From Trypanosoma brucei (lineage: Eukaryota): 64,000 nucleotides of DNA. Shown here piece after piece: positions 7,549-43,932 of the stretch. The first letter of the stretch is position 1; every line of letters starts with the position of its first letter. The stretch spans positions 96,001 to 160,000 of the forward strand of contig CM000208.1 of NCBI GenBank assembly GCA_000002445.1, written 5' to 3'. The notes beneath the pieces are model-generated. The model saw only the letters and a list, made by a program, of their open reading frames with translations, did no database searches and was not told where the DNA came from. Both the position numbers and the translations under genes were made by a program.

Positions 7549-7998
7549 ATGTCCGTGCGCATTCGCTTTATTCTTACAGGCGCCTGTCCTCCGTCCTACT
7601 CTGGCAAGCAGGTTCAACTTAACTTCCCTCTTGAGGATGAAAATGGGGCACCCACAACAACAGCTCACCTAAAGCAATTGATTCGTACGCAGTGGCCAGA
7701 AAATATGTCAGAAATGAAAGAAGTTGTTGAGAAAACTGAAATGAGAGTCCTTAAAACTGGAAACCTCCTCTCAGATGATACCCAAATTCGCTCTGTCCTG
7801 ACGGCTACAGAATTAAGCGAGTGTAGCATTAACCCAAGTGCTGAAGGGAGCGGCCGAGCAGATGAGGATCAGAAATCAGTTCTGATGCATCTAGTTTTTC
7901 AGAGCAATCAAAGTCAAGGCAGACAAAGAGATGGCAGCGCAGGTGGAGGAAGGCGTGATAATGCTTCCCATGATAGTGGTTGTTGCACCATGCTGTAG
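7549..7998 (+). CDS. membrane-anchored ubiquitin-fold protein (MUB/UBL3-like) with C-terminal CaaX prenylation box
   Basis: The 149-aa protein starts at an ATG. Its ubiquitin-like core (IRFILTGA..GKQVQLNFPLED...LKQLIRTQWPEN...MRVLKTGNLLSDDTQIRSV...VLMHLVFQ) resembles the UBL3/MUB family (WP motif, MHLV). The protein ends in CCTML-stop, a CaaX box of the CC-aa-L type like UBL3's CCVIL. Confidence 0.7.
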   Translation: MSVRIRFILTGACPPSYSGKQVQLNFPLEDENGAPTTTAHLKQLIRTQWPENMSEMKEVVEKTEMRVLKTGNLLSDDTQIRSVLTATELSECSINPSAEGSGRADEDQKSVLMHLVFQSNQSQGRQRDGSAGGGRRDNASHDSGCCTML

Positions 7999-9721: not shown

Positions 9722-10201
9722 ATGTTGGAGTCTTTTGAATTTGATCAGGAACGAAAGGAGGCGTTAAACACAGTGGCGGAGCTAATCGCTTCAACTATTG
9801 AGGGAGCTGAGTCACAAGATGTTCACGATGTACTTTCGTCATCCCTTCATTTGCCTCATAACTGGCAGGAAATTGTTCAGAAAAGGGCTGAGCAAAGGCG
9901 TAAACTCAGTGCTACTTTTACTTTATTTTGTGAAGAAACAATTGCCACCCCGTCAACGGATGGAAATGCCGCTCTGGATATTAGTGAAGCGCCCGCAACA
10001 TGTTTCTTACCGGAGTTACGACCCAAAACAATGCCACCCGTTACAACTTCAGCGACACGCGGGTTTGAGTGTCCCAGTTGTGGAAATCATTGGGATGTTG
10101 TTGACGCCCGTAAATCACTGCGCAATAGCAACACATCTTCTGCTGTGCGAGAGTTAAGTAATGCTGATGTTGGATTTTGCCCAGTGTGTGAAGATATTTA
10201 G
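9722..10201 (+). CDS. hypothetical protein with C-terminal CxxC...CxxC zinc-ribbon-like motif
   Basis: The ORF-track start at 9701 is TTG, and the first ATG is at 9722 (MLESFEFDQ...). The C-terminus carries CPSCGNHW...CPVCEDI, two CxxC pairs. The ORF sits on the same strand as the flanking genes. Confidence 0.4.
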   Translation: MLESFEFDQERKEALNTVAELIASTIEGAESQDVHDVLSSSLHLPHNWQEIVQKRAEQRRKLSATFTLFCEETIATPSTDGNAALDISEAPATCFLPELRPKTMPPVTTSATRGFECPSCGNHWDVVDARKSLRNSNTSSAVRELSNADVGFCPVCEDI

Positions 10202-22671: not shown

Positions 22672-24966
22672 ATGGAGAATTACACCCAACTTCGTGTGTT
22701 GGGGAAAGGTAGCTTTGGCTCCGCATGGTTAGTGCAACGTCGAAGCGACCGCGTGAAGTTTGTAGCTAAAGAGGTGAGATTAGCCGGTTTACGGCCTGCC
22801 GAACGGGACAGTGCCAAACGCGAGATTGACCTTCTTCGTACTCTTCACCATCCAAATATTACGCGATATGTGGACCATTTTGAACACCGTGGTGCGTTGT
22901 ATATTGTAATGGAGTATGCAGACGGTGGGGATCTGTATTCAGCAATTAGAAATCGCAGAGGCACGCGTTTCTCTGAAAAAGAGATTTTACACTATTTTTC
23001 ACAGCTGTGTTTGGCTATGCTGCATTTGCATGAAAAGCACATTTTGCACCGTGACCTGAAAACGCAAAACGTTTTTCTGACGAGTGATGGGGTTGTTAAA
23101 TTGGGTGACTTTGGTATTAGTACCGTGTTACGCAACACATTCGAACTGAAGCGGACAGTGTGCGGAACTCCGTATTATTTTTCGCCGGAGCTGTGCCTTA
23201 ATAAACCGTACAACAATAAGAGTGATGTATGGGCCCTTGGCTGCATTTTATATGAACTGACGACCCTGACGCATGCTTTCGACGGAAACAATATGAAGGC
23301 CCTCGTACAGAAAATTCTAAAGGGTAGCTACCCGCCTATCCATAGTAGTTATTCGACTAGTTTGTCTAAGCTCATATCGTCAATGCTTCAGATTGATCCC
23401 CAACGGCGTCCAAGTGTTAGCGAAATTATTTCATCTCCATACATACGTGAGTCACTCTCATTACTGCAACGAGTGGTCAAAGATGCCCACAATAATAAAG
23501 GGCCATGCCAACTAGCAGGTGACAAGGAGCGGGCAGCAGCTGGATTTAAACAGCAGGAAAAGGCCCAGGAGGCCCCCATGCGGGCTGAAGAACGCCGTAA
23601 AGAAGAACACGCAAAGGCAATGCATGCTGCAAAGGAGCGATTACAACTCCGCATGCAAGGTGAAGCTCGAAATCGTGAAAATGAAGAGAAGTTGCGGCAA
23701 CTGAAGCTGGACCAACGCCAAGCGGAAGTGGAGCAGAAGATAAGAAAACAAGAATTGGAAGCCCGTGTGCGGGAGCAGCGAAAACTACTTGAAAAGCGAG
23801 CCAAAGCGCACGCACTGTTGGAGAAACAAAGGGAAGAGGAATGGGAGCGCAACATGAGGGAGCATGCAGAGGAAGTTAGGCGAGGCCAAGGAGAGGAGGG
23901 TTGTGCACGTGACAACAGAGAAACAAACGCTCCTAACGATAGACCGTGTAATCGATACGGTGATGGTGGACGGCGGTCTCCATTGAAAGTCCCACCTTCT
24001 CCAACAGCAGCAGCAGAGTTGTACCGTGAGATGCGCCGCCAGGCAGCCCTGAATAAGCAGCGCTTTATGGAAGAGATGAAAGTAGAGCAACCACCTCCTG
24101 CCGTTAGCGGGCAACCCAACGGGAATGGGAAATTACCACCGAATAGGGGAGGGAACGCGTTGGGTAACCCTCTGGGGAATGGCCAGCAGCCGCAACCGAT
24201 ATCACCACTAGACGATATGGAAGCACGCCGCAAGGCTTATTGGGATATGCGGCGGGAGGCAGAAGAGAACAGGCGACGAGCACTGGCTTTAGAGGCAGGT
24301 CCAAGCGCTGTGCAGGTGGAACAACCCGAAGCGGCACCCCCTAAGGAATCGGCAATGCCACACATAGTGAAAAAGCCTGCACCACAGCAACGGCCGCAAG
24401 CCAATGATAACAAACCAAAGGATGTTTGCCCTTTGCTCTATGCAAAGCGCACCGCCAACAATGAGGGCCCGCCGTCGCCACAACTGGAGCCGAACACTCC
24501 CGCCAATAGGGTTGGAGTCTACCCTGAAGTTAGTCGCGCAGATTCTCCAGATAGTGGGACGGAGGTGAAGAGAGACGAGGATTATAACGCACTCCAGACT
24601 CTTATAGACAGGGCGCTGACAAAGAAGGGCGATCGTGAGAGTGATGAAGACTTCAATGATGAAGCGTTCGTGGACTCTGATATATCACGTTTTGTGCTGG
24701 ATGGACGGACACTCGTGCTTCCGAAAGTGCAAGCCACAGATCCATTGATGCACCGTATCGAGTCTCTTCGCCTTTTCCTTGAGGGCGAACTTGGCGAGTC
24801 CAAACTCTTGGGAGCTTACCGGCAGATGAATGATATTAGTGCGGACGACGACGAAGCAATGCAGCGTGTTCGGGATGAACTTCCAGAAGCCCACCATAAA
24901 TACATCCCAATCATTGCCCAACTGATTGTGTGCGAAGATGCATTTAATCGTCAAATGCTGCGGTAG
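22672..24966 (+). CDS. NEK-family (NIMA-related) serine/threonine protein kinase with C-terminal coiled-coil/charged region
   Basis: The N-terminal kinase domain carries LGKGSFGSAWLV, VAKEV, HRDLKTQNVFL, DFGIS and the NEK-typical GTPYYFSPELC. It is followed by an Arg/Glu/Lys-rich coiled-coil (EERRKEEHAKAMHAAKERLQLRMQGEARNRENEEKLRQLKLDQRQAEVEQKIRKQELEARVREQRKLLEKRAK). Confidence 0.9.
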   Translation: MENYTQLRVLGKGSFGSAWLVQRRSDRVKFVAKEVRLAGLRPAERDSAKREIDLLRTLHHPNITRYVDHFEHRGALYIVMEYADGGDLYSAIRNRRGTRFSEKEILHYFSQLCLAMLHLHEKHILHRDLKTQNVFLTSDGVVKLGDFGISTVLRNTFELKRTVCGTPYYFSPELCLNKPYNNKSDVWALGCILYELTTLTHAFDGNNMKALVQKILKGSYPPIHSSYSTSLSKLISSMLQIDPQRRPSVSEIISSPYIRESLSLLQRVVKDAHNNKGPCQLAGDKERAAAGFKQQEKAQEAPMRAEERRKEEHAKAMHAAKERLQLRMQGEARNRENEEKLRQLKLDQRQAEVEQKIRKQELEARVREQRKLLEKRAKAHALLEKQREEEWERNMREHAEEVRRGQGEEGCARDNRETNAPNDRPCNRYGDGGRRSPLKVPPSPTAAAELYREMRRQAALNKQRFMEEMKVEQPPPAVSGQPNGNGKLPPNRGGNALGNPLGNGQQPQPISPLDDMEARRKAYWDMRREAEENRRRALALEAGPSAVQVEQPEAAPPKESAMPHIVKKPAPQQRPQANDNKPKDVCPLLYAKRTANNEGPPSPQLEPNTPANRVGVYPEVSRADSPDSGTEVKRDEDYNALQTLIDRALTKKGDRESDEDFNDEAFVDSDISRFVLDGRTLVLPKVQATDPLMHRIESLRLFLEGELGESKLLGAYRQMNDISADDDEAMQRVRDELPEAHHKYIPIIAQLIVCEDAFNRQMLR

Positions 24967-26437: not shown

Positions 26438-28015
26438 ATGCGGTGCAACAAAGCATTACATCGGTATGATGCTGTTGTGGTGGGTGGGGGTCTTGCGGGG
26501 TGCCTTGTCGCCGGCCGTCTTGCGATGGACAACCGGCGGATTGCCGTTATTGAAGAGGGTGAAGATATTCGGCGACAGCCCCGGTGGCATCGTAACTTGG
26601 CATGTAGCCTCCTGTCGCATAGATGCGGGGGCCGTGGTTACGAGAGCCATACCAACGTTACAACTCCTCAGCTTTCGCATGAAAAGGAAAATGCCCCTGC
26701 ACCCGTCATGATTCCAACACCGAAAGTGCTTGGCGGTGGCGGAGTCATGGGAGGCCGGTCATGGCTTATTGGTGATGAGGCGGATTGGACTGCAACTCCA
26801 TGGGACTTCCGTGGTGATCTTTTACCTCGTGTGCAACGCTTGGAAAATGTGGAAGGCGCAGGCCCACACCGCGGTCGTCGGGGGAGGTTTACCGTTGGTC
26901 GCTCGCACGCCCAATCTCCACTTTTTAGGGTATTTTGCGAAGCAATGTCAAAAGACACGTCAATAACAAGTGATTTCAACAAGAAGGCGTTTGCTGTGCG
27001 GACGGGTTGCGGGCGTACTGAGTCTTTTGTAGACCCAAATACAGGTGTGGCGCATACCACACTGCAGAGTTACTTGATGGACGCCATCGAACTTAGGCGA
27101 CCGCTAGACGTGATATGCAACGCGAGAGTCTTTGGTATCAGCAGCGGTAAGGACGACCCGGCTATTGCAACTGGTGTCTCCTACACCCAAAAGGGTGAAA
27201 CGGTGCATGTTGAAGCAGATGATGTTATTCTTTGCGCTGGAGGGATCGGTACACCATTACTCTTAGCTGCATCCCGCGGTCCACTTCCCATCGACCAGTC
27301 GGTTGGCACAAATTTTTGGGATGCACCGCAGGTGAAGCTCCAATTTCGTACCCCATCGTCGCTCAGTCACAATTGCTTCATGGACCCGTTGGTGCAGGCA
27401 TTTTTGTGGCCCAATGTAACGTACGGCACCCCTATTAGTTCCCTGCGTTCTGCATATGACGACATGATTTGTTTCTGGTCGAGCACAGGAGGACAAACCC
27501 CTGATGTAAAATTCATTTTTCAGCCGTTCACGCTCAACAATGACGGCTCACAACCGAAAAATGTGACTCATGGAGTGCAGATTATTGCTCAGCTGCTGAA
27601 GCCCAAAAGTCGCGGGTCCATATGCGCTGATGGCACCATTAACCCGCAGTATTTTTCCCATACGGATGATGCAGCAGTTCTCAGCAAAGCCGTGGCGCGA
27701 GTGAAGGAGCTGTCGAAGGTATTGCCTTTTTCTAACCTTTTTTCTGAACTTATTGCTGAGCATTTTGAGTCAGCAGGCGTCTACGGCGGGGCAACGTACC
27801 CGGCGGTCGCACCTGAGACATTTCTCGTGAAAGGTACGCGAAACGTGTATGCATGTGACGAAAGTATTTTGCCCTCCCCATTGTTAGGTGGATCTCTGCC
27901 TTTTATATTGGCTTTAGGGGAAAAATTTAGTGATCATTATTTGCAGAAACTGGAGACTACCGGTAAAGCAGCTGCATCGGAAGGTATCGATGCGAAGGCG
28001 CGTATAATTTATTGA
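26438..28015 (+). CDS. GMC-family FAD oxidoreductase (choline dehydrogenase-like)
   Basis: The N-terminal FAD-binding Rossmann motif is YDAVVVGGGLAGCLVAGRLAMD. The 525-aa length and internal GMC-like segments (GGGGVMGGRSWLIGDEADW; ...ILCAGGIGTPLLL...) fit glucose-methanol-choline oxidoreductases. Confidence 0.8.
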   Translation: MRCNKALHRYDAVVVGGGLAGCLVAGRLAMDNRRIAVIEEGEDIRRQPRWHRNLACSLLSHRCGGRGYESHTNVTTPQLSHEKENAPAPVMIPTPKVLGGGGVMGGRSWLIGDEADWTATPWDFRGDLLPRVQRLENVEGAGPHRGRRGRFTVGRSHAQSPLFRVFCEAMSKDTSITSDFNKKAFAVRTGCGRTESFVDPNTGVAHTTLQSYLMDAIELRRPLDVICNARVFGISSGKDDPAIATGVSYTQKGETVHVEADDVILCAGGIGTPLLLAASRGPLPIDQSVGTNFWDAPQVKLQFRTPSSLSHNCFMDPLVQAFLWPNVTYGTPISSLRSAYDDMICFWSSTGGQTPDVKFIFQPFTLNNDGSQPKNVTHGVQIIAQLLKPKSRGSICADGTINPQYFSHTDDAAVLSKAVARVKELSKVLPFSNLFSELIAEHFESAGVYGGATYPAVAPETFLVKGTRNVYACDESILPSPLLGGSLPFILALGEKFSDHYLQKLETTGKAAASEGIDAKARIIY

Positions 28016-29500: not shown

Positions 29501-30802
29501 ATGGTTGATGTTAATGGAACGACAATTTTGACCTCTACGGTAGGGGGGTCCTCGCAGTCCAAATGTATTAAAAACACCAATGATTTCAACAATTCGCTAA
29601 CGAGGGCACGAAAACCACTTGGAATGCCTCAACTGGATGAGAAGCAACTGGAAGTGGGCGCCCCGGAGTCCACAGCACTTAACGCTCCTTTTGTAATGCA
29701 TGATGGTCTCGCAGCTCCGGCACCACCCGCCACGATGGAAAATGCGGCGCCGCCTATCGGTTTGGGTGGTCCTGTGCTTCTTGTGGGACCCGGAAGCCCA
29801 TACAATGCGGGAAATCTCTTCACCATTGACAATTCACAGGGAAATGCGGCATTTGTGACACTCTGCCAGCAGCCTTCCTTCCACTATCAACAACCAGCAC
29901 CACAACCTACTGTAGTGGATCAGGAAGTCGCACTTACACATAAATGTCTCCAAGAGTGCCCGCGGGCCGTGCTGGTGGCGGCTCTTACTTCCCTACTAGA
30001 GGAGTTCCCACTATTATGTCCAATCATTCGTCAACGCTGTGAAAAGGCCACAATGGTCTTACCGAAACAACAACAACATCAACAACAGCAACAACAGCAG
30101 CAGCAGCAACAACATCAACTTCAACATCAACAACAGGGAATAACGGGGCGGTTCGCTGGACTTACTCAATCTGCTGTCCCATGGGCTGCTCATCCTCCAA
30201 CTGCCAGTTATGACACCCAACGAACCACTCTTATTTCCACTGGTGGCAACTCACCGCAAACGGGGGGCTCTCGCAAGGGCCGTGGCAACAAATCCCGTGA
30301 GGAAGGCATTTGTAGCCTACACAATAATGTACGCTCCATGAACCATCTGCAACTCAATAAACAAAAAGGCGTGTATGAATGTGTCAGTGGCTTTCATTGC
30401 CTTGAAGACGGTTGCTCTGGCTCAGCCTCTCCTGCAAGTACAAAAGTGGCTCGCACTCCCTTAGCGCCAGTTGGGGTTTCACAAGTGCGCGGAGGAGACG
30501 GTCGCGGTGTTGCCTCCTTTGCTGCTATGAGTGGAGGAAATCTTATGGCAAGTTCGAAACTATCAGCACCTGTGGGATCAATTCAAGCTCCTAAAGATCA
30601 ATTCAGTGATTTCATGGCTAACAGTTTGGATAGCGGACTCACTCCATTCCGTGGAGACGTAAGCCTTGGAAACAGCGGTATTGTACCGTGTGATGATCCT
30701 CAAACCGCAGAGGGAAGTGAAACTATTGATCTCGATAGCAGCGTCGTGACATTAAAAAGTATCCTGCACAGCGTCCGAATGGTGGCTGAAATGGAAGAGT
30801 AA
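29501..30802 (+). CDS. hypothetical protein with polyglutamine tract
   Basis: The 433-aa ORF starts at an ATG. An internal Q-run (KQQQHQQQQQQQQQQQHQLQHQQQ) is encoded by a mixed CAA/CAG repeat at about 30067-30136. The protein is followed by a ~4.5 kb gene-free T-rich region. No conserved domain was recognised. Confidence 0.5.
   Translation: MVDVNGTTILTSTVGGSSQSKCIKNTNDFNNSLTRARKPLGMPQLDEKQLEVGAPESTALNAPFVMHDGLAAPAPPATMENAAPPIGLGGPVLLVGPGSPYNAGNLFTIDNSQGNAAFVTLCQQPSFHYQQPAPQPTVVDQEVALTHKCLQECPRAVLVAALTSLLEEFPLLCPIIRQRCEKATMVLPKQQQHQQQQQQQQQQQHQLQHQQQGITGRFAGLTQSAVPWAAHPPTASYDTQRTTLISTGGNSPQTGGSRKGRGNKSREEGICSLHNNVRSMNHLQLNKQKGVYECVSGFHCLEDGCSGSASPASTKVARTPLAPVGVSQVRGGDGRGVASFAAMSGGNLMASSKLSAPVGSIQAPKDQFSDFMANSLDSGLTPFRGDVSLGNSGIVPCDDPQTAEGSETIDLDSSVVTLKSILHSVRMVAEMEE
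30067..30136 (+). repeat. (CAA/CAG)n trinucleotide repeat encoding polyQ
   Basis: The run aacaacaacatcaacaacagcaacaacagcagcagcagcaacaacatcaacttcaacatcaacaacag is seen directly in the sequence. Confidence 0.9.
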
Positions 30803-33800
30803 CATTTGTTTTTGTGAAAGTGGCGTGCATGCGGATGAAAAAATGAAGCGCAAAGCAGTAAAAAGAAAAACAAAAAATAAAATAAAATAAGAAACAAAAA
30901 GGAAGAAAGGAAACCTTCTCCTTCACATTCCTTCCCTCTCCCCCGTTGACCAGCCTGGTCAGAAAAAAAAAAAGGAAAGATCATGAAGATGTGCAAATAT
31001 GCCGGTTTGGGGTTTCGTTAGAAATCAGATTGAAAAGTGAGTTATCCCCTTTTTATTTTTTATTTTATGCATTTTTATCCGTTGATTTGTACTTTATTTA
31101 TTGCCCACATGAGTTAGCGGTTGTGATTTAGAAGGAGAAATGTCTTCTCCCTTTCTCTTTTCTTCTGGTTTTATCATATTTATTTTTTTTTCTCTCTCTC
31201 TTTTACTACCGTTATTGTATTTGTCTTTCTTTTTTTTTATTTTTTATCTGGTTACGCGTCGAAAGGAGTGTGGTCCAAGCGCTGGGAACATTTGCTCAGG
31301 TGCGCGTCTGCCTCCATATGGGGCCCTTTAAGAAACTAATGAGAAAAAAAAAGGAAAAAAAAATGAAACAAATGTTTTATTGCAGCAAAGGAAACAGTCG
31401 CTGCTTTTCTCTTTTTTTGTTTCCCTTTGATCCCATCAGAGTGCATCCTGTAAAGTTTCTCTTTTTTTTTCCCCCTTTTCCACGTGCATTTGTATATATT
31501 TTCTATCGGGTTTTATTTTTTTTTTGTGTGTTTGTTTTTTTCTTCCGTTGTGTGACAGCATCCGTATATATAAATATATATATTATTTATTTTCCTTTTT
31601 ACGTATTTTATTTAATTACAACCTCGAGAAATCATCATTACCACACGTGCGCAGTCGTAACTGCCTCTTTTTTTTTCTTTTTCTTTTTAACATTTCTTCA
31701 CTCAAATATGTACTTTTGTTTCCATGTGAGTGAATGAATGTGCGACATTCCGTGACAATTCTTCCGTCACCCATAGTAATCCTCATCGTATCTCTGATTT
31801 ATTTTCATTAATGTTATTCGCATTATTTTTTTCTTCATTTTTTATTATTATTTTTAAATTTAATCTTTCCTTCCTTATATTTATTACTGTTACCTTCCAC
31901 TTTTACAGTTATTTTATTTTTCTTTGTTTGGGGTAATTTAATTTAATTTAATTCGTGTCGTCGTCGTTGTTGTTGTTTTGTTATTATTTTCCTTTTATTG
32001 AAAGAAAAGGGGATTGAAAAAAAAAAGAAAAAAAGAAAAAAAGTGGAAATGAGAGTTGCGTTAACTGACGCAACTCCGTCGCTATGTTTTAATGAGTGAC
32101 ACGCGTGTCTTTTTTTTTAAAAAAAAAACCTCTCTTTCTTTCTTTTACTATTTTATTATTTTATTTCTCTCTTAAACACACGTACAAATTGCAAAAGCAA
32201 ATACACCAAAGAAAAACACATTTCATCATTCTCATTATTATTATTATTGTTGTTGGTGGTGGTGCTGTTTTTTTTTCCCCCCTCCTCCTCTTCCTTCTTC
32301 TGATTTATGTTATCGGCAATCTTATGTTTGCTCTCTGATGCATTTATGTTTTTCCTTTCTTTCTTTCTTATTTATTTATTTCTACTCCCTAACATCACTC
32401 ATGTCTTCGATATTTTACTACCTTTTTATGAGCTATTTATTTATGTTTGTGTTTATGTTTATGTGTGTGCCGGCAGCGACTTCCTGTCCTTATTATTCTT
32501 CATTATTATTTGTATTTATTTTCTGTTTGATCCGTTTTTTCCCCCCCTTTTACTCTGCCTTGTTATGTCATGTCTGTCCTTCTTTTTCTTTTTTTTTTTG
32601 GTTTTTACTGTTTTTTTTTTTACTTTTTGTATATCTTCATGGTAATTTATTTCCCCCTTTTGTTTTTTTCTTTCTATTATATATACGCAATGTGTAACAA
32701 ATATCCCTTTAAATATAATATCACTGTGTATGTGTGTGTGTCGCGCACCATTTGGCTCATAAATGTCATGTACCTCATTTCCCTTTCTTTCTTTCTGTTT
32801 AATTCATTCCTTCCTTTTATTCATTTATTTACTTATTTACTTAATCTGCTTTTTATTTTATAAAAAAAATATATATATATATATATATCCATCCATCCAT
32901 TCATCCATATATATATTAATATATTAATATATTTAATTATATTTATTTATATAAAAGAGTGCTGATATCAAATCGTTTCGAATTTTAACTCGTGTTTGCT
33001 TCGGGTTTTTTTTTACCCCTCCTCCTCTGCTGAATTGACAGGCGATTATCCAATGGAGATGGTTGATATTATTGTTATTATTAGTTTAACATATGCGTGT
33101 GTTATTTTTTATTCTAACGCAAAAGTGATGAAGAAAAAATAAAAAGAGATTATCTGCAACGTTTTATAAAAATAAAATAAAATAATTACTGTTGTTATTG
33201 TTGTTGTTGTTGTTGCTACTGCTATTATTATTATTATTTTTAAAAATATTATGAATATTTATTTCCTTTCTTTGATGTGTGATCGCATCTACTCCTCATT
33301 TTTCTCGAGTACATGTACCGAAAATGCCATAAATTCCGCTATTTTTTTTTTTTGCGTTTGTGTGGTGACAGAATTGTGAAGAAATTATTCAAAAAAAAAT
33401 AATAATTAAAAATGAACGAAAAAAAAAAGACGAAATAAAATAAATAATTATATATATATAAACAAATATTGATAAATTCAAGACGGTTATCTGACATGAG
33501 TGTTGTACAAAAAAAAAAAGAAGCAAAGAGTCGAGAAATTATAAAAGTGGTGGAAAAGTGCCTGAGAAAGAGTGACGGAGGGAGAAAATATGTTAAAATA
33601 TATAAATATATGTATTGTATTTTGTTTTTTTTTCTACCTCCCATTCCTTCTATGTTTTTCTATAGATTTATAAATAAATTAATAAAAATATACGCAAGAA
33701 AGCGTGTCTGAGTTTACATGTGGTCACTGCATCAATTTCATTACGAGAAGGACCGGCAAGTGACGAACCGCAATGTATAATAAATATATATATTTTTTTC

Positions 33801-35330
33801 TTTTTTTTTTTTTAGCATATTTATATTTATATCTATCGGCATGTTCATATTCGTTTCTTTTTTTTTTTAATTTGGTAGAATTCTTTTTGTTTAACTCTTT
33901 GGCATTCCATTTCCCATTCGTCCTCTTTTGCACGCAAACGTGTGGCTGAGTGGTGGAATCTGCCGGTAATGAAGAAATAAAACAATAAATGACAATTAAA
34001 AAAGAAGAAAAGAGAAACAATAATGATAAAACAAACTCACATTTCTTTTTTTTTTTTAAAGAAAAAGGTGCGAAATTATTAACGTAATGAATTAAACAGG
34101 TGACTATTTGACAGAAAGATGTGAATAACTACAGAAATTTGAGAGAAAGAGAAAAGAAACGAAAAAAAAAAGGACAAAAAAAAGAAGGAATAAATCAACA
34201 AAGTAATATGAAAAAAAAATGTGATTCACGTATGTATTAATGTATGAAACACATTTATGTCTCAATGGATTTTGCTGCTTTTTCTCATTATATTTATGTT
34301 TGTCTCTCGATGTATTTATTTCTTTATTTATTTTTTAAATATGTGAAAGGAATTTATTTGTGACGCGTCAGGAACTCCTCGCGCCTGTTATCATTTCACG
34401 TAATGGAGAATAAATAAATAAATATTTATATTTACGCGCTCGTTTTGTTGAATTCTTATCCTTCATCATATCCATTGTACCATTTTTATATTTATAATTC
34501 ATCTATTCAATTTTATTCTGTTTCTTGTTTTACCTATTTATTTTTCATCTGTACACGAATTAACAGATTGCGTTTAGCAGTTATCAATTCAGTTCCAAAA
34601 AAAAAAAAGAGAGAAGGCATATTCTTTCTGTGTATGAGTTCACAAAAAAAAAAGAAAATGTTATTAAATGTATTCACGTGTCGTTTTGCTTTCTTTTTTT
34701 TTTGTTTCCCCTTCACTCTGCTCAGACACTCTACAAGGAGAAAAAAGATGTTTTCTTGTTGTTGTTATTATTATTATTATTTCGTTCATGTTGTTTTGTT
34801 CTATTCTGTTTTTTTTCCTTTTCCTTTTGCTACCCGGTGCGAAAACGGTATCTTCTTTAATATGGTGAAGTGAGCGAGTAATAGCTATTTTTAAAAAAAA
34901 TAATCAAACGATAAAAGTTAAAAATGAAAAAGGAAATGATGACGATGACGATGGCGATGGAGAATAAAATAGGGAGAAATGTACGATTGACTCCCACTTA
35001 TTTCATTCCATTCTTCCCTCTGTTTATTGTTTCTTAAATATGTGTTCTTATTCTCATTTTTGTTTCGGTCATTTCTTAATACATTACTGCCTGCTCTTCT
35101 TTTTCTCTTTTTTTTTATTTCAACACGTTGCGTATCAAATAGTAATACACAACAGGTGACGAGGAGCTTCCTTCCCCTCCTTCCCTTTTTTCTCCTTTTA
35201 AAAGATAAAAAGAAAACATTAATCACAAACATATCTGTACGTTTGGGAGGAATAACGACGGAGGGAAGGTACACATATTTTCATTGAAAGAATCAAAAAT
35301 AAAAAATCTTTTAAAAAAATATTACATCAC
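30803..35330 (+). other. ~4.5 kb gene-free, extremely T-rich low-complexity region (probable long UTR or intergenic)
   Basis: No ORF with protein-like composition is present; all ORF-track entries there are F/L/S-rich translations of T-runs. The + strand carries many T-runs, (ATT)n/(GTT)n tracts and (AT)n. Small islands of normal-complexity sequence at about 32040-32110, 33700-33760 and 34360-34420 contain short palindromes. Confidence 0.7.
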
Positions 35331-36335
35331 ATGCCTCTCATGTCTGCAGATGGAAGTGGTGAATTGCCACCCGTAATGCTCCATCGCTATCCGGTAACAC
35401 TTGGACTTCCCACGGCGGATCCATATGCACTTGCTATCGAGTGTATGTTACGAATTGTTGGGGCACATTACAAAAAAAGAGATGGAGGACTACCCGTTAC
35501 ACTCGAAGTGCCAGTTGATGGTAGGAATAAACCTGCGATGAAGCGACATGAGGGTCTCACGTCATGTTTACAATTAATTGAGTCCGCCACACATCAGGAC
35601 GCGGAAGTAATCACATCGGCACTTGAACCGGAGGCGTTGTGTGTGCGACTTACGGCTGAGGTGGTGTTAATACCCGCGTTTGTGTATATAACGCATAGTG
35701 ATGCCGGAATTTTACGTAATGCCATTCAAAAGGCGGTAGAACCAAAAGTGGCGAGCATGTGGCAACGGTTCCGCGGTTCATATTCCCGTCACGTGGTGCA
35801 ACAAACGTCTTTTTGTCGGTCGTATAAAAATATGGGTGAAGCCATCGAGAATGTGGAGCGCTGCCTTCGGGCGATTGAAGCAATTTGTTCGATTAACACG
35901 GCTGGTAATGGGATGTTCATTCTTGGTACTGAGAGACCATGCAGTGCTGACGCGTTAATATACGCGGCAGCTTCTTCTTTTTTTCATGCTGATTTTGCTT
36001 CCCGCCAGGCATCAGGCGATATTATTGCAATGCAGCAGCGGTTAAGGGAAGGATGCCCCACATTACTGACTTACGTGGAGCGACTCCGTGGGTTATATTT
36101 CGAAGATTACAGTGCCTTCTACCACCTGCGTGCCCCAACCTGTGGAATGGAGGGTGAAGCTACGCAGAAGGCTGCAGAAGAAACTTTTGTTAGGGGACGG
36201 TGGAAAGTTTTGGCATTCACCGGCGTTTTCTCTATCACATATTTTCTTGTTGCAAATATAGATGTCTTTTCGGCAGTTCTGCTGCATTATCTGGAGGATG
36301 ACGGGGAAGAAGAGTTTTTAGAAGATGAAGAGTGA
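35331..36335 (+). CDS. hypothetical tail-anchored protein, possibly metaxin/GST-like fold
   Basis: The 334-aa ORF starts at an ATG. The C-terminus has a single hydrophobic segment (WKVLAFTGVFSITYFLVANIDVFSAVLL) followed by an acidic tail (EDDGEEEFLEDEE). The internal segment FILGTERPCSADALIYAAASSFFHADFA resembles the GST-C/metaxin motif. The family assignment is tentative. Confidence 0.45.
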   Translation: MPLMSADGSGELPPVMLHRYPVTLGLPTADPYALAIECMLRIVGAHYKKRDGGLPVTLEVPVDGRNKPAMKRHEGLTSCLQLIESATHQDAEVITSALEPEALCVRLTAEVVLIPAFVYITHSDAGILRNAIQKAVEPKVASMWQRFRGSYSRHVVQQTSFCRSYKNMGEAIENVERCLRAIEAICSINTAGNGMFILGTERPCSADALIYAAASSFFHADFASRQASGDIIAMQQRLREGCPTLLTYVERLRGLYFEDYSAFYHLRAPTCGMEGEATQKAAEETFVRGRWKVLAFTGVFSITYFLVANIDVFSAVLLHYLEDDGEEEFLEDEE

Positions 36336-37296
36336 AGAATCTCCAACAGATCACTCAAGTGAGTGATACATGAGGTAAAACAACAAAGGGGAGGAAGAAG
36401 CACCAGAAGGGAGTTGAATGGAGGAGCGAATGGAGTCCAACATTCATGAATGCGGGACGATATATATATATATATTAATGCATATAAACATGTACGCGTG
36501 AGAGCAGCGCTTGAAGGGAACGAAAGAAATTAAAAAAATTACGGATGTTTGAATGACAGATCCCTTTACTCTGAGAAGGTTCATCATTCAGCAACGCCGT
36601 TTCTTTTCCTTTATCTTCTCTATTCTATGGATTCTCCTGTGCCATGTGGGTTCGCGTTATAGTTGTATGTGTTGTCCCATTCTATTCTCCCTTTTTTTTA
36701 GTCTTAACGGGCACTAAAAGTGAGGGCAGTTAAAAATGTAGGCACGAGCAGGGTGCGGGCGAGGGACTTCCACTAACAAATCGTCACATTTCTCGTTTGT
36801 CTGCATATCTTTCTTTTTCTTGTTTTTTTTGTATTTCACAGGTTGTCACAACAGAAAGCGTTTCGTTGGTGTGTGTGTGTGTGTTTGTGTGTGTGCACGT
36901 TAGCGGTGTTGTTTACTTAGTCCCTATTTCGCTACCATCTATCAGTTTTGGTTCTGTTTTTTTTCTTTTAGTTTTCGTGCAAAAGTCTTTGTTATTGCCT
37001 TTTATTGAAATGTTGCTTTACTGTCAATGTTCCCCGTTCTTCTGCCTTTGTGCTTATCCTATTCTATCGCCGTTGATATGCGGCATGCAGTAGGTTTTCC
37101 TCCTTGAAGAAGGTGAAGGCAAGGGACCATTATTATTTTTTTTTTGTATTGCGGCAGAAGGTTGCGGAAGCTACTGTCAGTTCAACGATACTCAAGCGGT
37201 TACGTGTAAGCAAACAAAGGAGGGTGTTCAGGACACTATAAATTACTTCACAGTTTATTTACCTTTAAATCGTAATTGTCTTCACGTTTGGGTAAA

Positions 37297-38487
37297 ATGC
37301 AGGGCAGTTGGTCGGTTTTGAAGAAGAACTGTTCTAACTTCTTCCCTGGTTTACTCGCCTTTGCCCAACAGACGCAAGAGGCATACGGCATTTGGCTCCG
37401 AATTTATAACCGTCAACAAAAATATGGCCCAACAGACTTCGTTGAGCAGAGCGAAACATTTTCACCCGACTACCATAAACGCTTCCACTCACAAGACAAG
37501 AACATGTGGGTTGACAAGGAGCTCTGCACGGAAGTCTCCCAGAAGGAAGTGGCGCGTCTGATGACGTACAAACTTGACATGTGGCGTATGGCTCATTGCG
37601 CTGGTGCGTTATTGGCCACGGGTGGTTATGCCATTCCCTTCGGACTCTTTTGGCTCGCAAATGATACGTGGGTTCCATCATCTTTTAACCTTACTGGAGA
37701 GGAACTCCGGGCGTGGCGTGAAGCTCAGGACCTTTACCGTTACCGCAGTGCGCCGTCATATCTTACGGATACGAAATGGCACTTCGATTTTCATGCGTAT
37801 CCATGGAATGAAACACAGGAACGTGCCTGGGATGACTTGTTTGAGAAGAATGATGTTCGACGTGACCCTAAAGTGGTACGCCCCGCCGCTGAGATGTATG
37901 ACGGCTTCATCAAGTTTGAGTTGATTCGTCGCAAGTCTCTTCGTCATCTTTGCAGGAGCATGAACATTCCCACCTTTCCCATGCTCGCCCGCCTTTGCAA
38001 TGGTACACGGGTGCGTGACTACTGGAATTTGGCATGGTGTGAAGATTACATGGTCATAACGCAGCGACTGCACGAGTCCATGACGGATGAGGAACTATAT
38101 GACTATGCGTGGCGTCGGTATCTTGCCCCTTATGATAAGAACCTCAATCGAGAACAGCTTATGGAGCGTGTAGAGGATTATTTTGAGTTCCTTGGCCCTG
38201 ACTTCGTTGCCCATGGAAAGGCACCGAATCTTGTCATTTTAACCAATTATGTCCTTGGTTATTATAACGACCCCGCTTATCTGGAGGGAGACATATCGGA
38301 ACTGGACAAAAATGATTACGACCACTTAGCGAGTTGGGGGAAAGATGCGTTTCTGCGCCGACTCGAATTTGAAAACGGGCCTCTAAGAGATCAGGTGGAG
38401 GCGCACACACAACGTTTGTTGGCGGAGCGTGCAGCGATTGCAAAGGGTGATAATGCAGCCGCAGTGGAGGGCCGACACACAGCTTAG
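37297..38487 (+). CDS. hypothetical protein with one internal hydrophobic segment
   Basis: The ORF-track start at 37276 is TTG, and the first ATG is at 37297 (MQGSWSVLKKN...). The ORF is about 396 aa. A TM-like segment is MAHCAGALLATGGYAIPFGLFWLA. There is weak LETM1-like resemblance around LRHLCRSMNIPTFPMLARL, too weak to call. Confidence 0.55.
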   Translation: MQGSWSVLKKNCSNFFPGLLAFAQQTQEAYGIWLRIYNRQQKYGPTDFVEQSETFSPDYHKRFHSQDKNMWVDKELCTEVSQKEVARLMTYKLDMWRMAHCAGALLATGGYAIPFGLFWLANDTWVPSSFNLTGEELRAWREAQDLYRYRSAPSYLTDTKWHFDFHAYPWNETQERAWDDLFEKNDVRRDPKVVRPAAEMYDGFIKFELIRRKSLRHLCRSMNIPTFPMLARLCNGTRVRDYWNLAWCEDYMVITQRLHESMTDEELYDYAWRRYLAPYDKNLNREQLMERVEDYFEFLGPDFVAHGKAPNLVILTNYVLGYYNDPAYLEGDISELDKNDYDHLASWGKDAFLRRLEFENGPLRDQVEAHTQRLLAERAAIAKGDNAAAVEGRHTA

Positions 38488-39496
38488 TTACTGCGATATC
38501 AGCACGTTTTTGTATTGTGTTGTGTTGTTGTGAATTTGAGTGTGGAGTGGACTGTGTAGGAAGAAATAGTAGTAGGTGGTTTCACGCGCACATCAGATTA
38601 GGGAACGTAAAAAAAAAAAAGGAGAGACAGATCTGGGAATGAAAGAAAGGAGGGGGATGTTAGGACGCTTGTGTACCTTTCTCGTATATGAAGTCATGTG
38701 CAAGCTACGCTGATAGAGCAATAACATGGTGACAGAGTGAAAGGCAAAAGGCACTTGCAGAAGGGGGAATTTTTGTTTTCGTATTTGATATTAACTCTCC
38801 ATGTGTTGTCGCAGCGACTGTTTTCGCATATGACATAATTGCGCACATGACAGCATGCATCAGCAGTTTTGGTAGCATCTGCCTCATGTCAATGTTTGAC
38901 AGTCAAAGGTTGAAATCATGTCATGATGGAGGTGGTTCAACACCTCAAGGGGACTTTTTTTTTTTGAATATTTTGGCGATGCCTTCATGACGTTTATGCG
39001 GTGCAAGAAGCAGGTTCCCTTTATTCTTTTTACTTTCCAGATCTTCATCGGAATGTCCAATCGAAGTTTAGTGTGAATGAATGACTTTATATTTGTCTGT
39101 GTCCTTTTTGTTGTTTTGTGGTCTCCCATCTGAAACTCATTTTATTTTACTCTTTCTTTTATCTCATTATGATTTTACTCCCTCTGGAGGACAAAATCAC
39201 GTTTATCACCTCTTTTTTCTTTGCCCATTTAGGTAGTAGAGGTCACTAGGTCCTAGTTTTCTTTTTTAATTCCACTTCGCCACGTTACTCCAATCAAGCA
39301 AAGAGAAAAGGTAAAAAGAAGGGGAGTGAGTTGAGTCAGACAAGAAAAGAATACGTGGGTCGACGCAGTGTGATAATATAAAGGCGTGAAGCAGGGGGAT
39401 AAAAGTAAAGGAAAAGAGAAGTGGGAACGGTATCCTATTTTCACGCACCGTATACCATAGTGAGTTGCTAACACCGTATTTGATTACTTACGGAAT

Positions 39497-41563: not shown

Positions 41564-43384
41564 AATGAAAAAAAAATGAGAGGGTTGTGTGAGTATATTG
41601 ATATGAATTTAATCGTTAAGGCATGTTATGTTGTGTTATATTATTTGCATGCATACTTTGCTCTGCATCATATAAAGGGGTCACGTATTTTGCTGGCTGT
41701 TTTCCATTTTTTTTTTTCCATTTCCATTTCCCTTTTCTTTTTCGCTTTTTTTTCTTCTTCCATTTGGGCGTGCCACTTAATATTTGTTTCCTCTGTTCCT
41801 CCCCTACTGTTTTTCATAATGCTTTTTTTTTGTTGTTTACTCGACCGAATTTTCTTGTATTCCTTCCTTCTGTCCCATCTGTTGCTGCACAATATACTGT
41901 CTCTTTGCTATTTAAAAAAAAAAATCGGTGAGGTGGGGAACCTCCTTTAAAAACGTTTTCGAGCAGATGCGGATTTCTTCTTTTTTTTTTCTTTTGTTAC
42001 AATGTGTTTAATAATTTTTTGAAAAACAAACAAACAAACAAACAAAACTTACCCTTTTATAACTTCTTCATAACCGCTGCGGTGCTTCTCGGGCTCATAA
42101 GCCATTACTTTCTTTCTCTTTCAGAGTTGATGCTTTCTCTTTCTTTCTTTCTCTTTACCGCATGTAAAGGGAGGGTTAATGCATCCCAATAAGAAAAGTA
42201 AATTTTTTTAGGCTTATGTTTTATGTTTTGTGTTTTCGAAAAATATTTGTATGTTTTATTGGTGTATCAAATAGAGATGACTTTTGTGAAATAGTCGATA
42301 ACGGCAGTGATAACGATAAACGGAATTTTTTTTCTTTTTGACTTGAGGAGTGGTCTCATCCTTTTGGTTGTTATTGACGCTTGTTTTTTTTTCTTTCTTC
42401 CATTTCTTCATTCTTTTTTTTCTTCTTTGTTTTTCATATCCTTTTTTTTGTTTTGCAATTATTTACATTTATTCCTCCCTTCCGTATCTGTGGGGGAACA
42501 TTTTTGTTGTTGCCTAATTTCTTTTTTTTTGTTCCTTTTTCTTAAGTCGTTTCATTTCATAATGTTTTTTTTGCTTTTTTTTTGTGTGTTTGTGTTTGCA
42601 GTACCATATGGTGCTGCATTTATATTTTTATGTGAGTGAGTGTGTGTGTGTGTGTGCCATCAGTGTGTTTTTTTTTTTTTGGGGGGAGGTATTCTGCACA
42701 AAATCGAAAGAAAGGAAGAAAAAACGAAAAGGAAAGAAAAAAAAAAGAATGAAAAAAAATTAAGAAAAAAAACATCTCCAGATATTTTGCAAGCATATGC
42801 GGTGGCTTGCTGAAACGCATCTCTTCAGCATAATAAAGATGAGTTGTGTTGTACCTCACTTTTGTTTCTGTTTTTAAGTTCCTTAAGGCCGCTTACTTTT
42901 TTTGTTTTTGTTTTTGTTTTTGTTTTTTTTGTGGCGGCTTCTTGTCGTCTGCTGATGTTGAATTGTCTTCCGTTTTTTTTTGTTGTTGTATTTTTACTGT
43001 ACCTACATTTGTTGTGTTCACAAATATCAGGTGTTATTTTGTCCCACATTACTATGAAACTCGCTTCTTTATTATTGTTGTTTTTACCATTCAGTTGCTT
43101 CTCTTAAATATATATATATATATATAATTAAAAGAAATATGCGCTGCGTCTCATCTTTTCAATACGTTTTTCCCTCTTTTTTTTCCCCTCTTCCTCTACT
43201 CTCATTTTCCTCCTTCATAGTTTTAATTGTTTCATAGTTTTAAAAGGTGTAGTTTAAGGAAAAGATGTGCACATGTAACAAATGTTAGCGCTTCTGGTGT
43301 CTTTTTTTTTTTAAATTGCCATCATCACTATTATTGTTATAGTCATTATTAATCCTATTATTGCTTACATATTCCCCCCCCCCC

Positions 43385-43525
43385 CCACAAACACACACAC
43401 ACACTTTTTCTGCTACATTCTTTTTTTTTAAAAAAATTCGAGGGTGCGGTTGTACGTGCCACTGGAGGAGGAGGAAAAACAAAAAAAGAATGTAGCAGAA
43501 AAAGTGTGTGTGTGTGTTTGTGGAA
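43385..43525. repeat. perfect inverted repeat (hairpin): ~45-nt arms at 43385-43429 and 43481-43525 with a ~51-nt loop, preceded by a C16 tract (43374-43389)
   Basis: Arm 1 is ccacaaacacacacacacactttttctgctacattcttttttttt. Arm 2 is aaaaaaagaatgtagcagaaaaagtgtgtgtgtgtgtttgtgg, its exact reverse complement. This was checked base by base. It lies about 410 nt upstream of the SUB2 ATG. Confidence 0.9.
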
Positions 43526-43932
43526 AAGAAAGGATACTGATGAGTGCAAGAAAAAAAAGAGAGAGTTGGTTAAGTGTATTAAATTTTAATTAGTTTTGTT
43601 AATGATCGTGACTGCCTTTATTTTCTTCTTTTTCTTTCTTACACCTAATTTAATGGTGAGTTGTGCTTTACTCTTTTTTTTTTTTGTGAATTTATTCTTA
43701 CCATTTAATGTTTATATGGCATCAGCATTTTATGTGCCTTCAACATAAAAAATGTGATTTTACTCGCTTTATTGTTATCCATTACACCTTTCCCTCACTT
43801 TCTCCAATACTTTATTTTAAAAATTTTTGACAAATAATATATATTTTAAAATTTTTTCTAGTCATTGACAACAGGTTAGCAACAAGATTTCAAAAAAAAA
43901 AGAAAAGAAAAAGAAGTTAAAGATAAATTAAC

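What the first reader, a model, noticed from the sequence alone, without database searches (positions are those of the whole stretch)
30803..35330. Unusually long (~4.5 kb) gene-free T-rich desert downstream of the polyQ-protein gene
Other intergenic spacers in this window are 0.3-2.9 kb; this one is about 4.5 kb of T-runs, (ATT)n/(GTT)n and AT microsatellites with no credible ORF. In trypanosomatids, very long 3'UTRs are characteristic of post-transcriptionally regulated genes, so the upstream polyQ protein (29501-30802) may be a regulated factor. Alternatively the desert hides a non-coding RNA. Normal-complexity islands with palindromes occur at 32054-32075 (8-bp stem agttgcgt/acgcaact), 32097-32108 (12-nt palindrome gacacgcgtgtc followed by T9) and 34360-34371 (gacgcgtc).
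Basis: partly seen in the sequence, partly recalled or inferred. Interest (0 to 1): 0.5.

Follow-up and report, generated by a model that had tools for sequence, protein, structure and literature searches.

The report
Known 4.2-kb trypanosome 3′UTR

Summary
The window is T. brucei TREU927 chromosome 10 (window position = chromosome position − 96,883). Region 30803-35330 is the longest spacer in the window (4,528 nt; the others are 67-2,912 nt). It is 29% GC, full of homopolymer runs and microsatellites, and has no credible ORF, tRNA, Rfam family or C/D-box candidate.

Published data explain it:
- The current genome annotation gives Tb927.10.480 (the polyQ gene) a 3′UTR at chr10:127,686-131,887, which is window 30803-35004 (4,202 nt, about 11 times the genome median of 388 nt).
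- Mugo & Clayton 2017 mapped the same UTR by hand (~4,120 nt, "includes two other ORFs"). They found the mRNA 9-fold enriched on RBP10 and counted nine UA(U)6 motifs, the maximum among bound mRNAs. I recount exactly nine.
- The mRNA rises about 4.5-fold when DRBD18 is depleted in procyclic forms.
- It shows no bloodstream/procyclic difference and no response to RBP10 RNAi.

The last 326 nt hold the polypyrimidine tract, the AG acceptors and the 5′UTR of POMP19 (Tb927.10.510).

This spacer is also the longest in the syntenic block in T. vivax (6.7 kb), T. theileri (3.9 kb) and T. melophagium (3.7 kb), but without sequence or motif conservation.

Verdict: real, long-3′UTR reading supported, hidden-ncRNA reading unsupported, already known.

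The parts
29501..30802 (+). CDS of Tb927.10.480, a kinetoplastid-specific poly(Q) protein of 433 aa. This is the gene that owns the 3′UTR.
   Evidence: Identical to EAN77480/XP_822308 of T. b. brucei TREU927. The gene ID follows from Tb927.10.470 being the choline dehydrogenase/GMC gene immediately upstream and from the UTR coordinates. Family alignment and AlphaFold model: a helical module, a Cys/His β-module (C271, H274, C294, H299, C300) and a C-terminal helix; the rest is disordered.
30803..35004 (+). Annotated 3′UTR of Tb927.10.480 (4,202 nt). The 5′ half is U-rich; the 3′ half is mixed A-rich and U-rich.
   Evidence: PMC11405848 Supplementary Data 1 gives UTR_Start 127686 and UTR_End 131887 on the + strand. 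The offset of 96,883 was verified with the UTR starts of Tb927.10.390.400.520 and .540, each falling 1 nt after an ORF stop in the window. An independent manual estimate is ~4,120 nt. Composition.
31054..34336 (+). Nine UA(U)6 (TATTTTTT) RBP10 recognition motifs, starting at 31054, 31181, 31238, 31514, 31824, 33103, 33340, 33791 and 34329.
   Evidence: My count is 9, against a first-order Markov expectation of 3.3 ± 1.9 (P ≈ 0.007). It equals the 'UAUUUUU count' of 9 in Mugo & Clayton S2 Table. Six of the nine are at the same positions in T. b. gambiense, which has 7 in total.
31318..31737 (+). Spurious 139-aa ORF. It is the equivalent of a 137-aa 'hypothetical protein' annotated in T. b. gambiense, and is one of the 'two other ORFs' that lie inside the UTR.
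   Evidence: Maps to L002 5939-6352. The translation is F/K-rich low complexity. Not in the protein collection; no Pfam hit.
32324..32697 (+). Spurious ORF (119 aa from the ATG at 32338). It is the equivalent of the 129-aa hypothetical ORF annotated in T. b. gambiense.
   Evidence: Maps to L002 6942-7331. The translation is an F/L-rich string. Not in the collection; no Pfam hit.
32053..32109 (+). Normal-complexity island with a 9-bp-stem hairpin (32053-32076) and the 12-nt palindrome GACACGCGTGTC (32098-32109), followed by T9 and A10.
   Evidence: fold z = -2.5. The hairpin is identical in T. b. gambiense; the last base of the palindrome is changed there. No Rfam match. Function not shown.
32475..32956 (+). 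481-nt stretch without any AG dinucleotide, the longest in the 64-kb window. It overlaps the densest block of polypyrimidine tracts.
   Evidence: GA is equally depleted, so selection against splice acceptors is only one possible cause.
35005..35155 (+). Inter-mRNA processing region: downstream of the poly(A) site of Tb927.10.480, with polypyrimidine tracts (35045-35066 and 35094-35121) and AG acceptors (35141, 35154).
   Evidence: The annotated UTR ends at window 35004. PolyY/AG map. The site lies about 90 nt upstream of the main polyY tract, as expected when polyadenylation is coupled to downstream trans-splicing. The coupling rule itself is stated in the abstract of PMC9380746.
35156..35330 (+). 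Probable 5′UTR of the downstream gene (35331-36335, metaxin-like GST_C_6 protein, inferred to be POMP19/Tb927.10.510).
   Evidence: Three independent Logan contigs carrying this gene start at window 35160, 35162 and 35169. GST_C_6 domain. POMP19 = Tb927.10.510 in PMC10432679. The assignment to this ORF rests on gene order and is an inference.

Best explanation
The 'desert' is not an empty intergenic region. From 30803 to 35004 it is the 4.2-kb 3′UTR of the poly(Q)-protein gene Tb927.10.480. This is followed by about 150 nt of processing signals (polypyrimidine tract plus AG) and the ~175-nt 5′UTR of the next gene, POMP19.

Shown:
- The RNA polymerase II polycistron is cut into mRNAs. The Tb927.10.480 mRNA is polyadenylated about 90-150 nt upstream of the POMP19 polypyrimidine tract and AG acceptors, so about three quarters of the mRNA is 3′UTR.
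- The UTR is a low-complexity platform of U-rich and A-rich tracts with nine UA(U)6 motifs.
- In bloodstream forms the mRNA is strongly associated with RBP10. It is rare, at about 0.4 copies per cell.
- In procyclic forms its level depends on DRBD18, the factor that promotes use of distal poly(A) sites.

Inferred:
- The UTR keeps the mRNA scarce or translationally restrained through RBP10 and other U-tract/A-tract binders.
- DRBD18 prevents use of cryptic internal processing sites at the many internal polypyrimidine tracts.
For: Identity of the window and genes.

Published UTR coordinates with four independent anchors for the offset.

My recount of 9 TATTTTTT versus 3.3 expected.

DRBD18 RNAi in procyclic forms gives logFC +2.18, FDR 2e-11. 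DRBD18 typically promotes distal poly(A) sites for more than 1,500 transcripts.

PolyY/AG architecture just after the annotated poly(A) site, and contig 5′ ends at 35160-35169.

No ORF, tRNA, Rfam family or C/D pattern.

Divergence between T. b. brucei and T. b. gambiense is 1.8% in the UTR. This compares with 0.4-0.6% in the flanking CDSs and 0.45-1.8% in other spacers, so the region behaves like UTR/spacer.

The orthologous spacer is the longest of its syntenic block in T. vivax (6,691 nt), T. theileri (3,937) and T. melophagium (3,669), and is at least 3.7 kb in T. rangeli.

Long (>2 kb) 3′UTRs dense in both polypurine and polypyrimidine tracts are a described class; the genome median 3′UTR is 388 nt.
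Against: I could not look at RNA-seq, spliced-leader or poly(A) reads directly. The UTR rests on two published annotations.

Annotation shows the distal site only. Shorter isoforms or internally processed transcripts may coexist.

The mRNA shows no bloodstream/procyclic difference (log2 -0.014, padj 0.96), no regulated translation efficiency (PF/BF 0.9), and no significant change on RBP10 RNAi or RBP10 expression. A regulatory output of RBP10 binding is therefore not demonstrated.

The one MPRA fragment from the UTR (window 31427-32568) gave essentially no reads in the positive screen, and the negative-screen sheets were not readable.

UA(U)6 enrichment is not conserved outside T. brucei: one motif each in the T. 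vivax, T. theileri and T. melophagium spacers.

The assignment of the DRBD18 row to Table S5 is inferred from the position of sheet headers in the stored file.
Confidence: 0.87

Rival explanations
1. Part of the region is expressed as one or more independent long non-coding RNAs, or as alternative short mRNA isoforms. These would be made by trans-splicing and polyadenylation at internal polypyrimidine tracts. They could exist in addition to the full-length UTR or, in some stages, instead of it.
For: There are 32 polypyrimidine tracts of at least 15 nt inside the region, many followed by an AG within 120 nt. T. brucei has 1,491 annotated lncRNAs, many embedded in UTRs. DRBD18 depletion, which shifts processing to proximal sites, raises this mRNA's read count about 4.5-fold. 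The T. b. gambiense annotators placed two gene models here.
Against: Two independent annotations treat the stretch as one UTR. The strongest polyY block lies in a 481-nt AG-free stretch that could not supply an acceptor.
Confidence: 0.25
2. The long spacer is functionally neutral. Microsatellite expansion and the lack of a usable splice or poly(A) signal simply made the UTR long, and RBP10 binding is a by-product of U-richness with no consequence.
For: No sequence conservation beyond microsatellites with other trypanosomes. Divergence is spacer-like. There is no expression response to RBP10 RNAi and no stage regulation. UA(U)6 enrichment is not conserved in other species.
Against: This spacer is the longest of its syntenic block in four separately assembled species, representing three lineages (brucei, vivax, theileri/melophagium), and is at least 3.7 kb in T. 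rangeli. The motif count exceeds the composition-based expectation (P ≈ 0.007). The mRNA is 9-fold enriched on RBP10, against the 3-fold threshold used to define targets. Its level depends on DRBD18.
Confidence: 0.2
3. The normal-complexity islands (32053-32109, 34361-34370) encode a small structured RNA such as a snoRNA or another ncRNA.
For: A 9-bp GC-containing hairpin and a 12-nt palindrome followed by T9 lie within 60 nt of each other. The fold z-score is -2.5.
Against: No Rfam family reaches gathering score in the whole window. The best sub-threshold hits are 16-23 bits against cut-offs of 45-229. There is no TGATGA…CTGA C/D pattern anywhere in the region and no tRNA. The palindrome is not intact in T. 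b. gambiense. Five of 200 shuffles fold as well. ACGCGT-type palindromes are not enriched under a second-order model (P = 0.06).
Confidence: 0.03
4. The region hides real protein-coding genes, namely the two ORFs annotated in T. b. gambiense.
For: T. b. gambiense DAL972 carries gene models of 137 and 129 aa here.
Against: The translations are F/L/K-rich low complexity. They are absent from a 15-billion-protein collection and have no Pfam hit. tblastx finds no conservation in other trypanosomes. Mugo & Clayton put the word ORFs in quotation marks and fold them into the UTR.
Confidence: 0.02

Closest known systems
RBP10-target 3′UTRs of T. brucei (e.g. the EP procyclin 26-mer and PGKB regulatory elements; Mugo & Clayton 2017, PMC5568443)
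   Same: It contains UA(U)6 motifs. The mRNA is enriched at least 3-fold (here 9-fold) with TAP-RBP10 in bloodstream forms, and it is listed in that paper's table of 260 bound mRNAs.
   Different: It has the highest motif count in the set (9) in an unusually long UTR. Unlike the typical targets, the mRNA is not procyclic-specific and did not rise after RBP10 RNAi.
Long (>2 kb) 3′UTRs rich in both polypurine and polypyrimidine tracts (RBP10's own >7-kb UTR, RDK2, CFB2; Trenaman et al. 2024, PMC11405848)
   Same: It is 4.2 kb long with dense U-rich and A-rich tracts, and the encoded protein is a low-abundance, possibly regulatory factor.
   Different: That class was defined by more than 3-fold higher translation in bloodstream forms. 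For Tb927.10.480 the translation-efficiency ratio PF/BF is 0.9 and is flagged 'No'. Its one assayed fragment was not a positive hit.
DRBD18-controlled alternative polyadenylation targets (Bard et al. 2024, PMC11260167; Bishola Tshitenge & Clayton 2022, PMC9380746)
   Same: It has a long UTR with many internal polypyrimidine tracts, and its abundance rises on DRBD18 depletion in procyclic forms.
   Different: A shift of the poly(A) site for this particular gene was not seen by me; only the abundance change is documented.
UTR-embedded lncRNAs of T. brucei (Guegan et al. 2022; Ceballos-Pérez et al. 2025)
   Same: It is non-coding, low-complexity sequence in a same-strand position between two genes.
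   Different: I found no evidence that a separate transcript is made here. The catalogue could not be consulted.

Membership tests
Trypanosome mRNA 3′UTR | Lies on the coding strand between the stop codon and a mapped poly(A) site of the upstream gene | tested here: met
   Published annotation 127,686-131,887 (+) equals window 30803-35004. The offset was verified with four other genes. An independent manual mapping gives ~4,120 nt. I did not inspect the reads themselves.
Trypanosome mRNA 3′UTR | The poly(A) site lies a short distance upstream of the polypyrimidine tract and AG used to trans-splice the next gene | tested here: met
   The UTR ends at 35004. PolyY tracts are at 35045-35066 and 35094-35121, and AGs at 35141 and 35154. 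Contigs of the downstream gene start at 35160-35169.
Trypanosome mRNA 3′UTR | No independent gene (protein, tRNA or known ncRNA) inside | tested here: met
RBP10 target mRNA | UA(U)6 motif(s) in the 3′UTR | tested here: met
   Nine copies on the + strand versus 3.3 expected. The same number is given in S2 Table.
RBP10 target mRNA | At least 3-fold enrichment in both RBP10 pull-downs | tested here: met
   Ratios of 9.11 and 9.06 in PMC5568443 S2 Table sheet 2. This is a literature value, not recomputed.
RBP10 target mRNA | Repressed by RBP10: procyclic-specific and/or increased after RBP10 RNAi. This is typical of the class but not universal (73 of 260 bound mRNAs are procyclic-specific). | tested here: not met
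   log2 PC/BS is -0.014 (padj 0.96). log2 RNAi/WT is 0.33 (padj 0.60). TE is flagged 'No', 0.9.
DRBD18-dependent alternative polyadenylation target | Change of poly(A) site usage on DRBD18 depletion | not testable with these tools
   Only the abundance change (logFC +2.18) is available. The supplements of the APA papers are not held.
Known structured ncRNA (Rfam; C/D snoRNA) | Covariance-model score at or above the family gathering threshold; C and D boxes at snoRNA spacing | tested here: not met
   Zero hits at gathering score. The best sub-threshold hit is 23 bits against a threshold of 45 or more. No TGATGA-N45-75-CTGA match in the region.
Independent lncRNA gene (T. brucei catalogue) | Own spliced-leader acceptor and poly(A) site, listed as KS17gene/NT transcript | not testable with these tools
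   The catalogue supplements are not held. The nanopore paper's stored supplement (which, per the paper, includes Table S5, the genomic locations of novel lncRNAs) was searched only for the four neighbouring gene IDs, not by coordinate.
Protein-coding gene | ORF with normal composition and homologues in related species | tested here: not met

The most novel reading that the evidence does not exclude
The exceptional length of this UTR is an ancient, selected property of the Tb927.10.480 orthologue in Trypanosoma (3.7-6.7 kb in four species, despite complete sequence turnover). In T. brucei it has been co-opted as the most motif-dense RBP10-binding RNA. It would then act as more than a passive UTR: for example, it could host an independently processed lncRNA, or switch between long and short isoforms under DRBD18 during stumpy or metacyclic development to release a dosage-sensitive Cys/His-module protein.
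Probability: 0.1. Interest if true: 0.45.

Novelty: already known. Interest (0 to 1): 0.15.

Why it matters
It matters little beyond annotation. The finding shows that a sequence-only reader can recognise a long trypanosome 3′UTR. It also gives a worked example where the 'desert' maps exactly onto a published UTR with the highest RBP10-motif count among bound mRNAs.

Two modest points may interest specialists:
- Spacer (UTR) length at this locus is conserved across Trypanosoma while the sequence and the UA(U)6 motifs are not.
- The mRNA is strongly RBP10-bound yet shows no RBP10-dependent or stage-dependent change. That makes it a candidate for regulation in stages not yet assayed (stumpy, metacyclic), or for DRBD18-controlled isoform switching.

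Tried and rejected
- Rfam at gathering score on the whole window, and at E ≤ 10 on 30700-35400: nothing credible.
- ARAGORN: no tRNA.
- C/D-box pattern: no match in the region.
- Exact look-up of 10 desert ORFs in the protein collection, hoping to find transcript-derived contigs: none present.
- Pfam on desert ORFs and on ORFs in the T. vivax and T. theileri spacers: nothing.
- blastn and tblastx of the desert against orthologous spacers of T. vivax, T. theileri, T. melophagium, T. grayi and L. infantum: only microsatellite matches, so no conserved island or relic gene.
- ACGCGT enrichment (three copies, all inside the flagged palindromes or near them): P = 0.004 under a first-order model but 0.06 under a second-order model, with 15 copies window-wide. 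Rejected as a signal.
- AG-free stretch as proof of selection against splice acceptors: GA is equally depleted, and the feature is not seen in other species. Kept only as a note.
- T. congolense synteny: its proteins are not on record in the contig index.
- Look-ups for Tb927.10.480 by exact protein in the contig index: not on record for TREU927.
- Supplements of Guegan 2022, the polysome paper, the PNAS 2024 and RNA 2022 DRBD18 papers: not held.
- Full-text searches for Tb927.10.480 and Tb927.10.490: no paper mentions them in the main text.
- A structure model of the polyQ protein is mostly low confidence (mean pLDDT 57), so no fold search was run.


Full report
**Where we are.** The 433-aa polyQ ORF (29501-30802), the 334-aa ORF after the desert (35331-36335) and the 764-aa kinase ORF (22672-24966) are identical to proteins EAN77480, EAN77481 and EAN77478 (NRKC) of Trypanosoma brucei brucei TREU927 chromosome 10. 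The GMC oxidoreductase ORF just upstream (26438-28015) is Tb927.10.470, 'choline dehydrogenase, putative'. That makes the polyQ gene Tb927.10.480. All genes in the window are on the + strand, as expected inside one polycistronic unit.

**The observation.**
- Length. The gap from the polyQ stop to the next ATG is 4,528 nt, the largest of the 23 spacers in the window; the rest are 67-2,912 nt.
- Composition. It is the most AT-rich long stretch (GC 0.29). Only the first ~2.2 kb is strongly T-skewed; the second half is A/T-balanced with many A-rich polypurine tracts.
- Repeats. Tandem Repeats Finder and the repeat finder return only homopolymer runs, 2-12-nt microsatellites and low-complexity 'families'.
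- ORFs. The ORFs inside are translations of T-rich DNA, such as FFFPPFPRAFVYIF. None exists in the 15-billion-protein collection, none hits Pfam, and tblastx against orthologous spacers finds nothing collinear.
- Palindromes. They are present, two of them one base off the stated coordinates. The first is a 9-bp stem at 32053-32076. They are mildly rarer than chance in this composition, but the 86-nt island folds only at z = -2.5. The palindrome's last base differs in T. b. gambiense.

**What it is.** Supplementary Data 1 of Trenaman et al. 2024 (PMC11405848) lists 3′UTR coordinates from the re-curated TriTrypDB annotation. For Tb927.10.480 they are Tb927_10_v5.1:127,686-131,887, + strand. Subtracting 96,883 puts the UTR start at window 30803, the base after the stop codon. 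The same offset puts the UTR starts of Tb927.10.390.400.520 and .540 exactly one base after the stops of ORFs 7549-7998, 9722-10201, 37297-38487 and 43933-45243. The annotated 3′UTR is therefore window 30803-35004, 4,202 nt. The genome-wide mean is 622 nt and the median 388 nt.

Those two ORFs correspond to the gene models annotated in T. b. gambiense at L002 5939-6352 and 6942-7331. They map to window 31318-31737 and 32324-32697.

**The 3′ boundary.**
- After 35004 come polypyrimidine tracts (35045-35066 and 35094-35121) and AGs at 35141 and 35154.
- Three independent Logan contigs carrying the downstream gene all begin at 35160-35169. This is what transcript-derived contigs starting near a trans-splice site would look like. 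I could not verify the nature of those runs.
- The downstream gene has a metaxin-type GST_C_6 domain. By gene order it is POMP19, Tb927.10.510, a mitochondrial outer-membrane protein. The next gene is Tb927.10.520.

**How it probably works.** In the Mugo & Clayton data the Tb927.10.480 mRNA has these properties:
- It is 9.1-fold enriched in both TAP-RBP10 pull-downs.
- It is rare, at 0.4 mRNAs per bloodstream cell.
- It carries nine UA(U)6 motifs.

The Fig 2B legend says only one bound mRNA had nine motifs, the maximum. I count nine TATTTTTT on the + strand of 30803-35004. A first-order Markov model expects 3.3 ± 1.9 (P ≈ 0.007), and the other spacers of the window hold 0-3. RBP10 is reported to repress translation and destabilise its targets.

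However, the same row shows no bloodstream/procyclic difference, no regulated translation efficiency and no significant change on RBP10 RNAi or ectopic RBP10. Binding is shown; a regulatory output is not.

In Ceballos-Pérez et al. 2025 (PMC12592628), the re-analysis of DRBD18 RNAi in procyclic forms lists Tb927.10.480 with logFC +2.18 and FDR 2e-11. The sheet assignment is inferred from header positions. DRBD18 typically promotes distal poly(A) sites and so the inclusion of 3′UTR elements. With 32 internal polypyrimidine tracts, this UTR is a plausible substrate, but a poly(A) shift at this gene was not seen by me. The only MPRA fragment from the UTR (window 31427-32568) had essentially no reads in the positive-selection arm.

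**Comparative evidence.** The gene order NRKC, GMC, polyQ, POMP19, Tb1, choline transporter, DEAD helicase is kept in T. b. gambiense, T. equiperdum, T. vivax, T. theileri and T. melophagium.
- Spacer length. The polyQ→POMP19 spacer is 4,588 nt in T. b. gambiense, about the same in T. equiperdum, 6,691 nt in T. vivax, 3,937 nt in T. theileri and 3,669 nt in T. melophagium. In each species it is the longest of the block. In T. rangeli at least 3.7 kb upstream of POMP19 is gene-free. The T. grayi, T. conorhini and T. rangeli assemblies all break inside this spacer.
- Neighbouring spacers. Their lengths are also broadly kept, so length conservation looks like a general property of UTRs here, not a peculiarity of this one.
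- Sequence. Only microsatellites match between species, and UA(U)6 motifs are not enriched outside T. brucei.
- Divergence. Between T. b. brucei and T. b. gambiense the UTR differs by 1.8%, against 0.4-0.6% in the flanking CDSs and 0.45-1.8% in other spacers. No low-divergence island coincides with the palindromes.

**Rivals.**
- Hidden small ncRNA: disfavoured by Rfam, ARAGORN, the C/D pattern and the lack of constraint.
- Hidden coding gene: excluded as far as sequence can tell.
- Separately processed lncRNAs or short isoforms: cannot be excluded without read-level data, and this is the main open alternative. It could also coexist with the full-length UTR.
- Purely neutral 'junk UTR': argued against by the length conservation and by strong RBP10 association, but favoured by the absence of any measured expression response.

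**Verdict.** The feature is already annotated and partly characterised in the literature. It is a large but otherwise ordinary member of the known class of long, low-complexity, RBP-bound trypanosome 3′UTRs.

Noticed in passing
window 32475-32956 (and 32210-32956): This is the longest AG-free stretch of the whole 64-kb window: 481 nt, against 255 nt for the next longest. Only two AGs occur in 746 nt. It sits on the densest polypyrimidine block of the UTR. GA is equally depleted (2 observed vs 10.7 expected). It could reflect avoidance of cryptic trans-splice acceptors, or it could just be composition.
   Followed up: partly
window 29501-30802 (protein Tb927.10.480): The polyQ protein belongs to a family with 43 representative hits at E ≤ 0.001 and no Pfam domain. 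It has three conserved modules. (1) A helical region at aa ~138-209 that includes the Q-run. (2) A small β-module with invariant or near-invariant C271, H274, C294, H299 and C300 (pLDDT ~90), which looks like a zinc-binding knuckle. (3) A C-terminal helix, LxxLLxSVR. The rest is predicted disordered.
   Followed up: partly
protein P0070: This 1,613-aa gene model from an unidentified organism combines an NRKC-like segment (aa 370-499), the polyQ-family Cys/His motif (aa 687-757) and a POMP19/metaxin-like GST_C_6 region (aa 1205-1537). It is most likely a merged prediction across neighbouring genes. If so, the same gene order exists in that organism too, which from the low identities (24-28% over the POMP19 part) looks more distant.
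   Followed up: partly
L010, L012, L013 (T. grayi, T. conorhini, T. rangeli): Three draft assemblies all end inside the spacer upstream of POMP19, at 1,755, 306 and 3,703 nt from the ATG. This is consistent with a long low-complexity spacer there as well.
   Followed up: partly
L011 1-10000 (L. infantum chr 21): No gene is called in the 10 kb upstream of the POMP19 orthologue, and no polyQ-family match is found there by tblastn. Synteny with the polyQ gene is either broken or stretched beyond 10 kb in Leishmania.
   Followed up: no
L003 1-24: The first 24 nt of one Logan contig (GAGCACAGGGCATCTGTGATGCGG) match neither the window nor the spliced leader. The rest aligns from window 35169 onward. 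It is possibly a chimeric contig end or an adapter.
   Followed up: no
window 31823-31855 vs 33395-33427, and other pairs: U-rich tracts in the 5′ half of the UTR are complementary to A-rich tracts in the 3′ half; for example, one pair is 33 nt long and 88% complementary. One arm covers the UA(U)6 motif at 31824. Long-range pairing could mask motifs, but such matches are expected between low-complexity A and T tracts.
   Followed up: no
window spacers 36336-37296, 38488-39496, 41564-43932 and orthologues: Spacer lengths across the syntenic block are broadly kept between trypanosome species. For example, the choline transporter→DEAD helicase spacer is 2,369, 2,139, 2,171, 2,121 and 2,004 nt in T. 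brucei, T. vivax, T. theileri, T. melophagium and T. conorhini, although the sequences do not align.
   Followed up: partly
window 30070-30135 (CAA/CAG run): The polyQ tract is length-polymorphic among Trypanozoon strains. The T. b. equiperdum protein P0005 is 428 aa, against 433 aa in TREU927, T. b. gambiense DAL972 and T. equiperdum OVI.
   Followed up: no
window 35331-35339: The T. b. gambiense POMP19 model is 331 aa, against 334 aa in TREU927. In the Logan contig from a related strain, the first ATG of the TREU927 model reads ACG (cacatgcct becomes cacacgcct). The real start codon may therefore be the second ATG at 35340.
   Followed up: no
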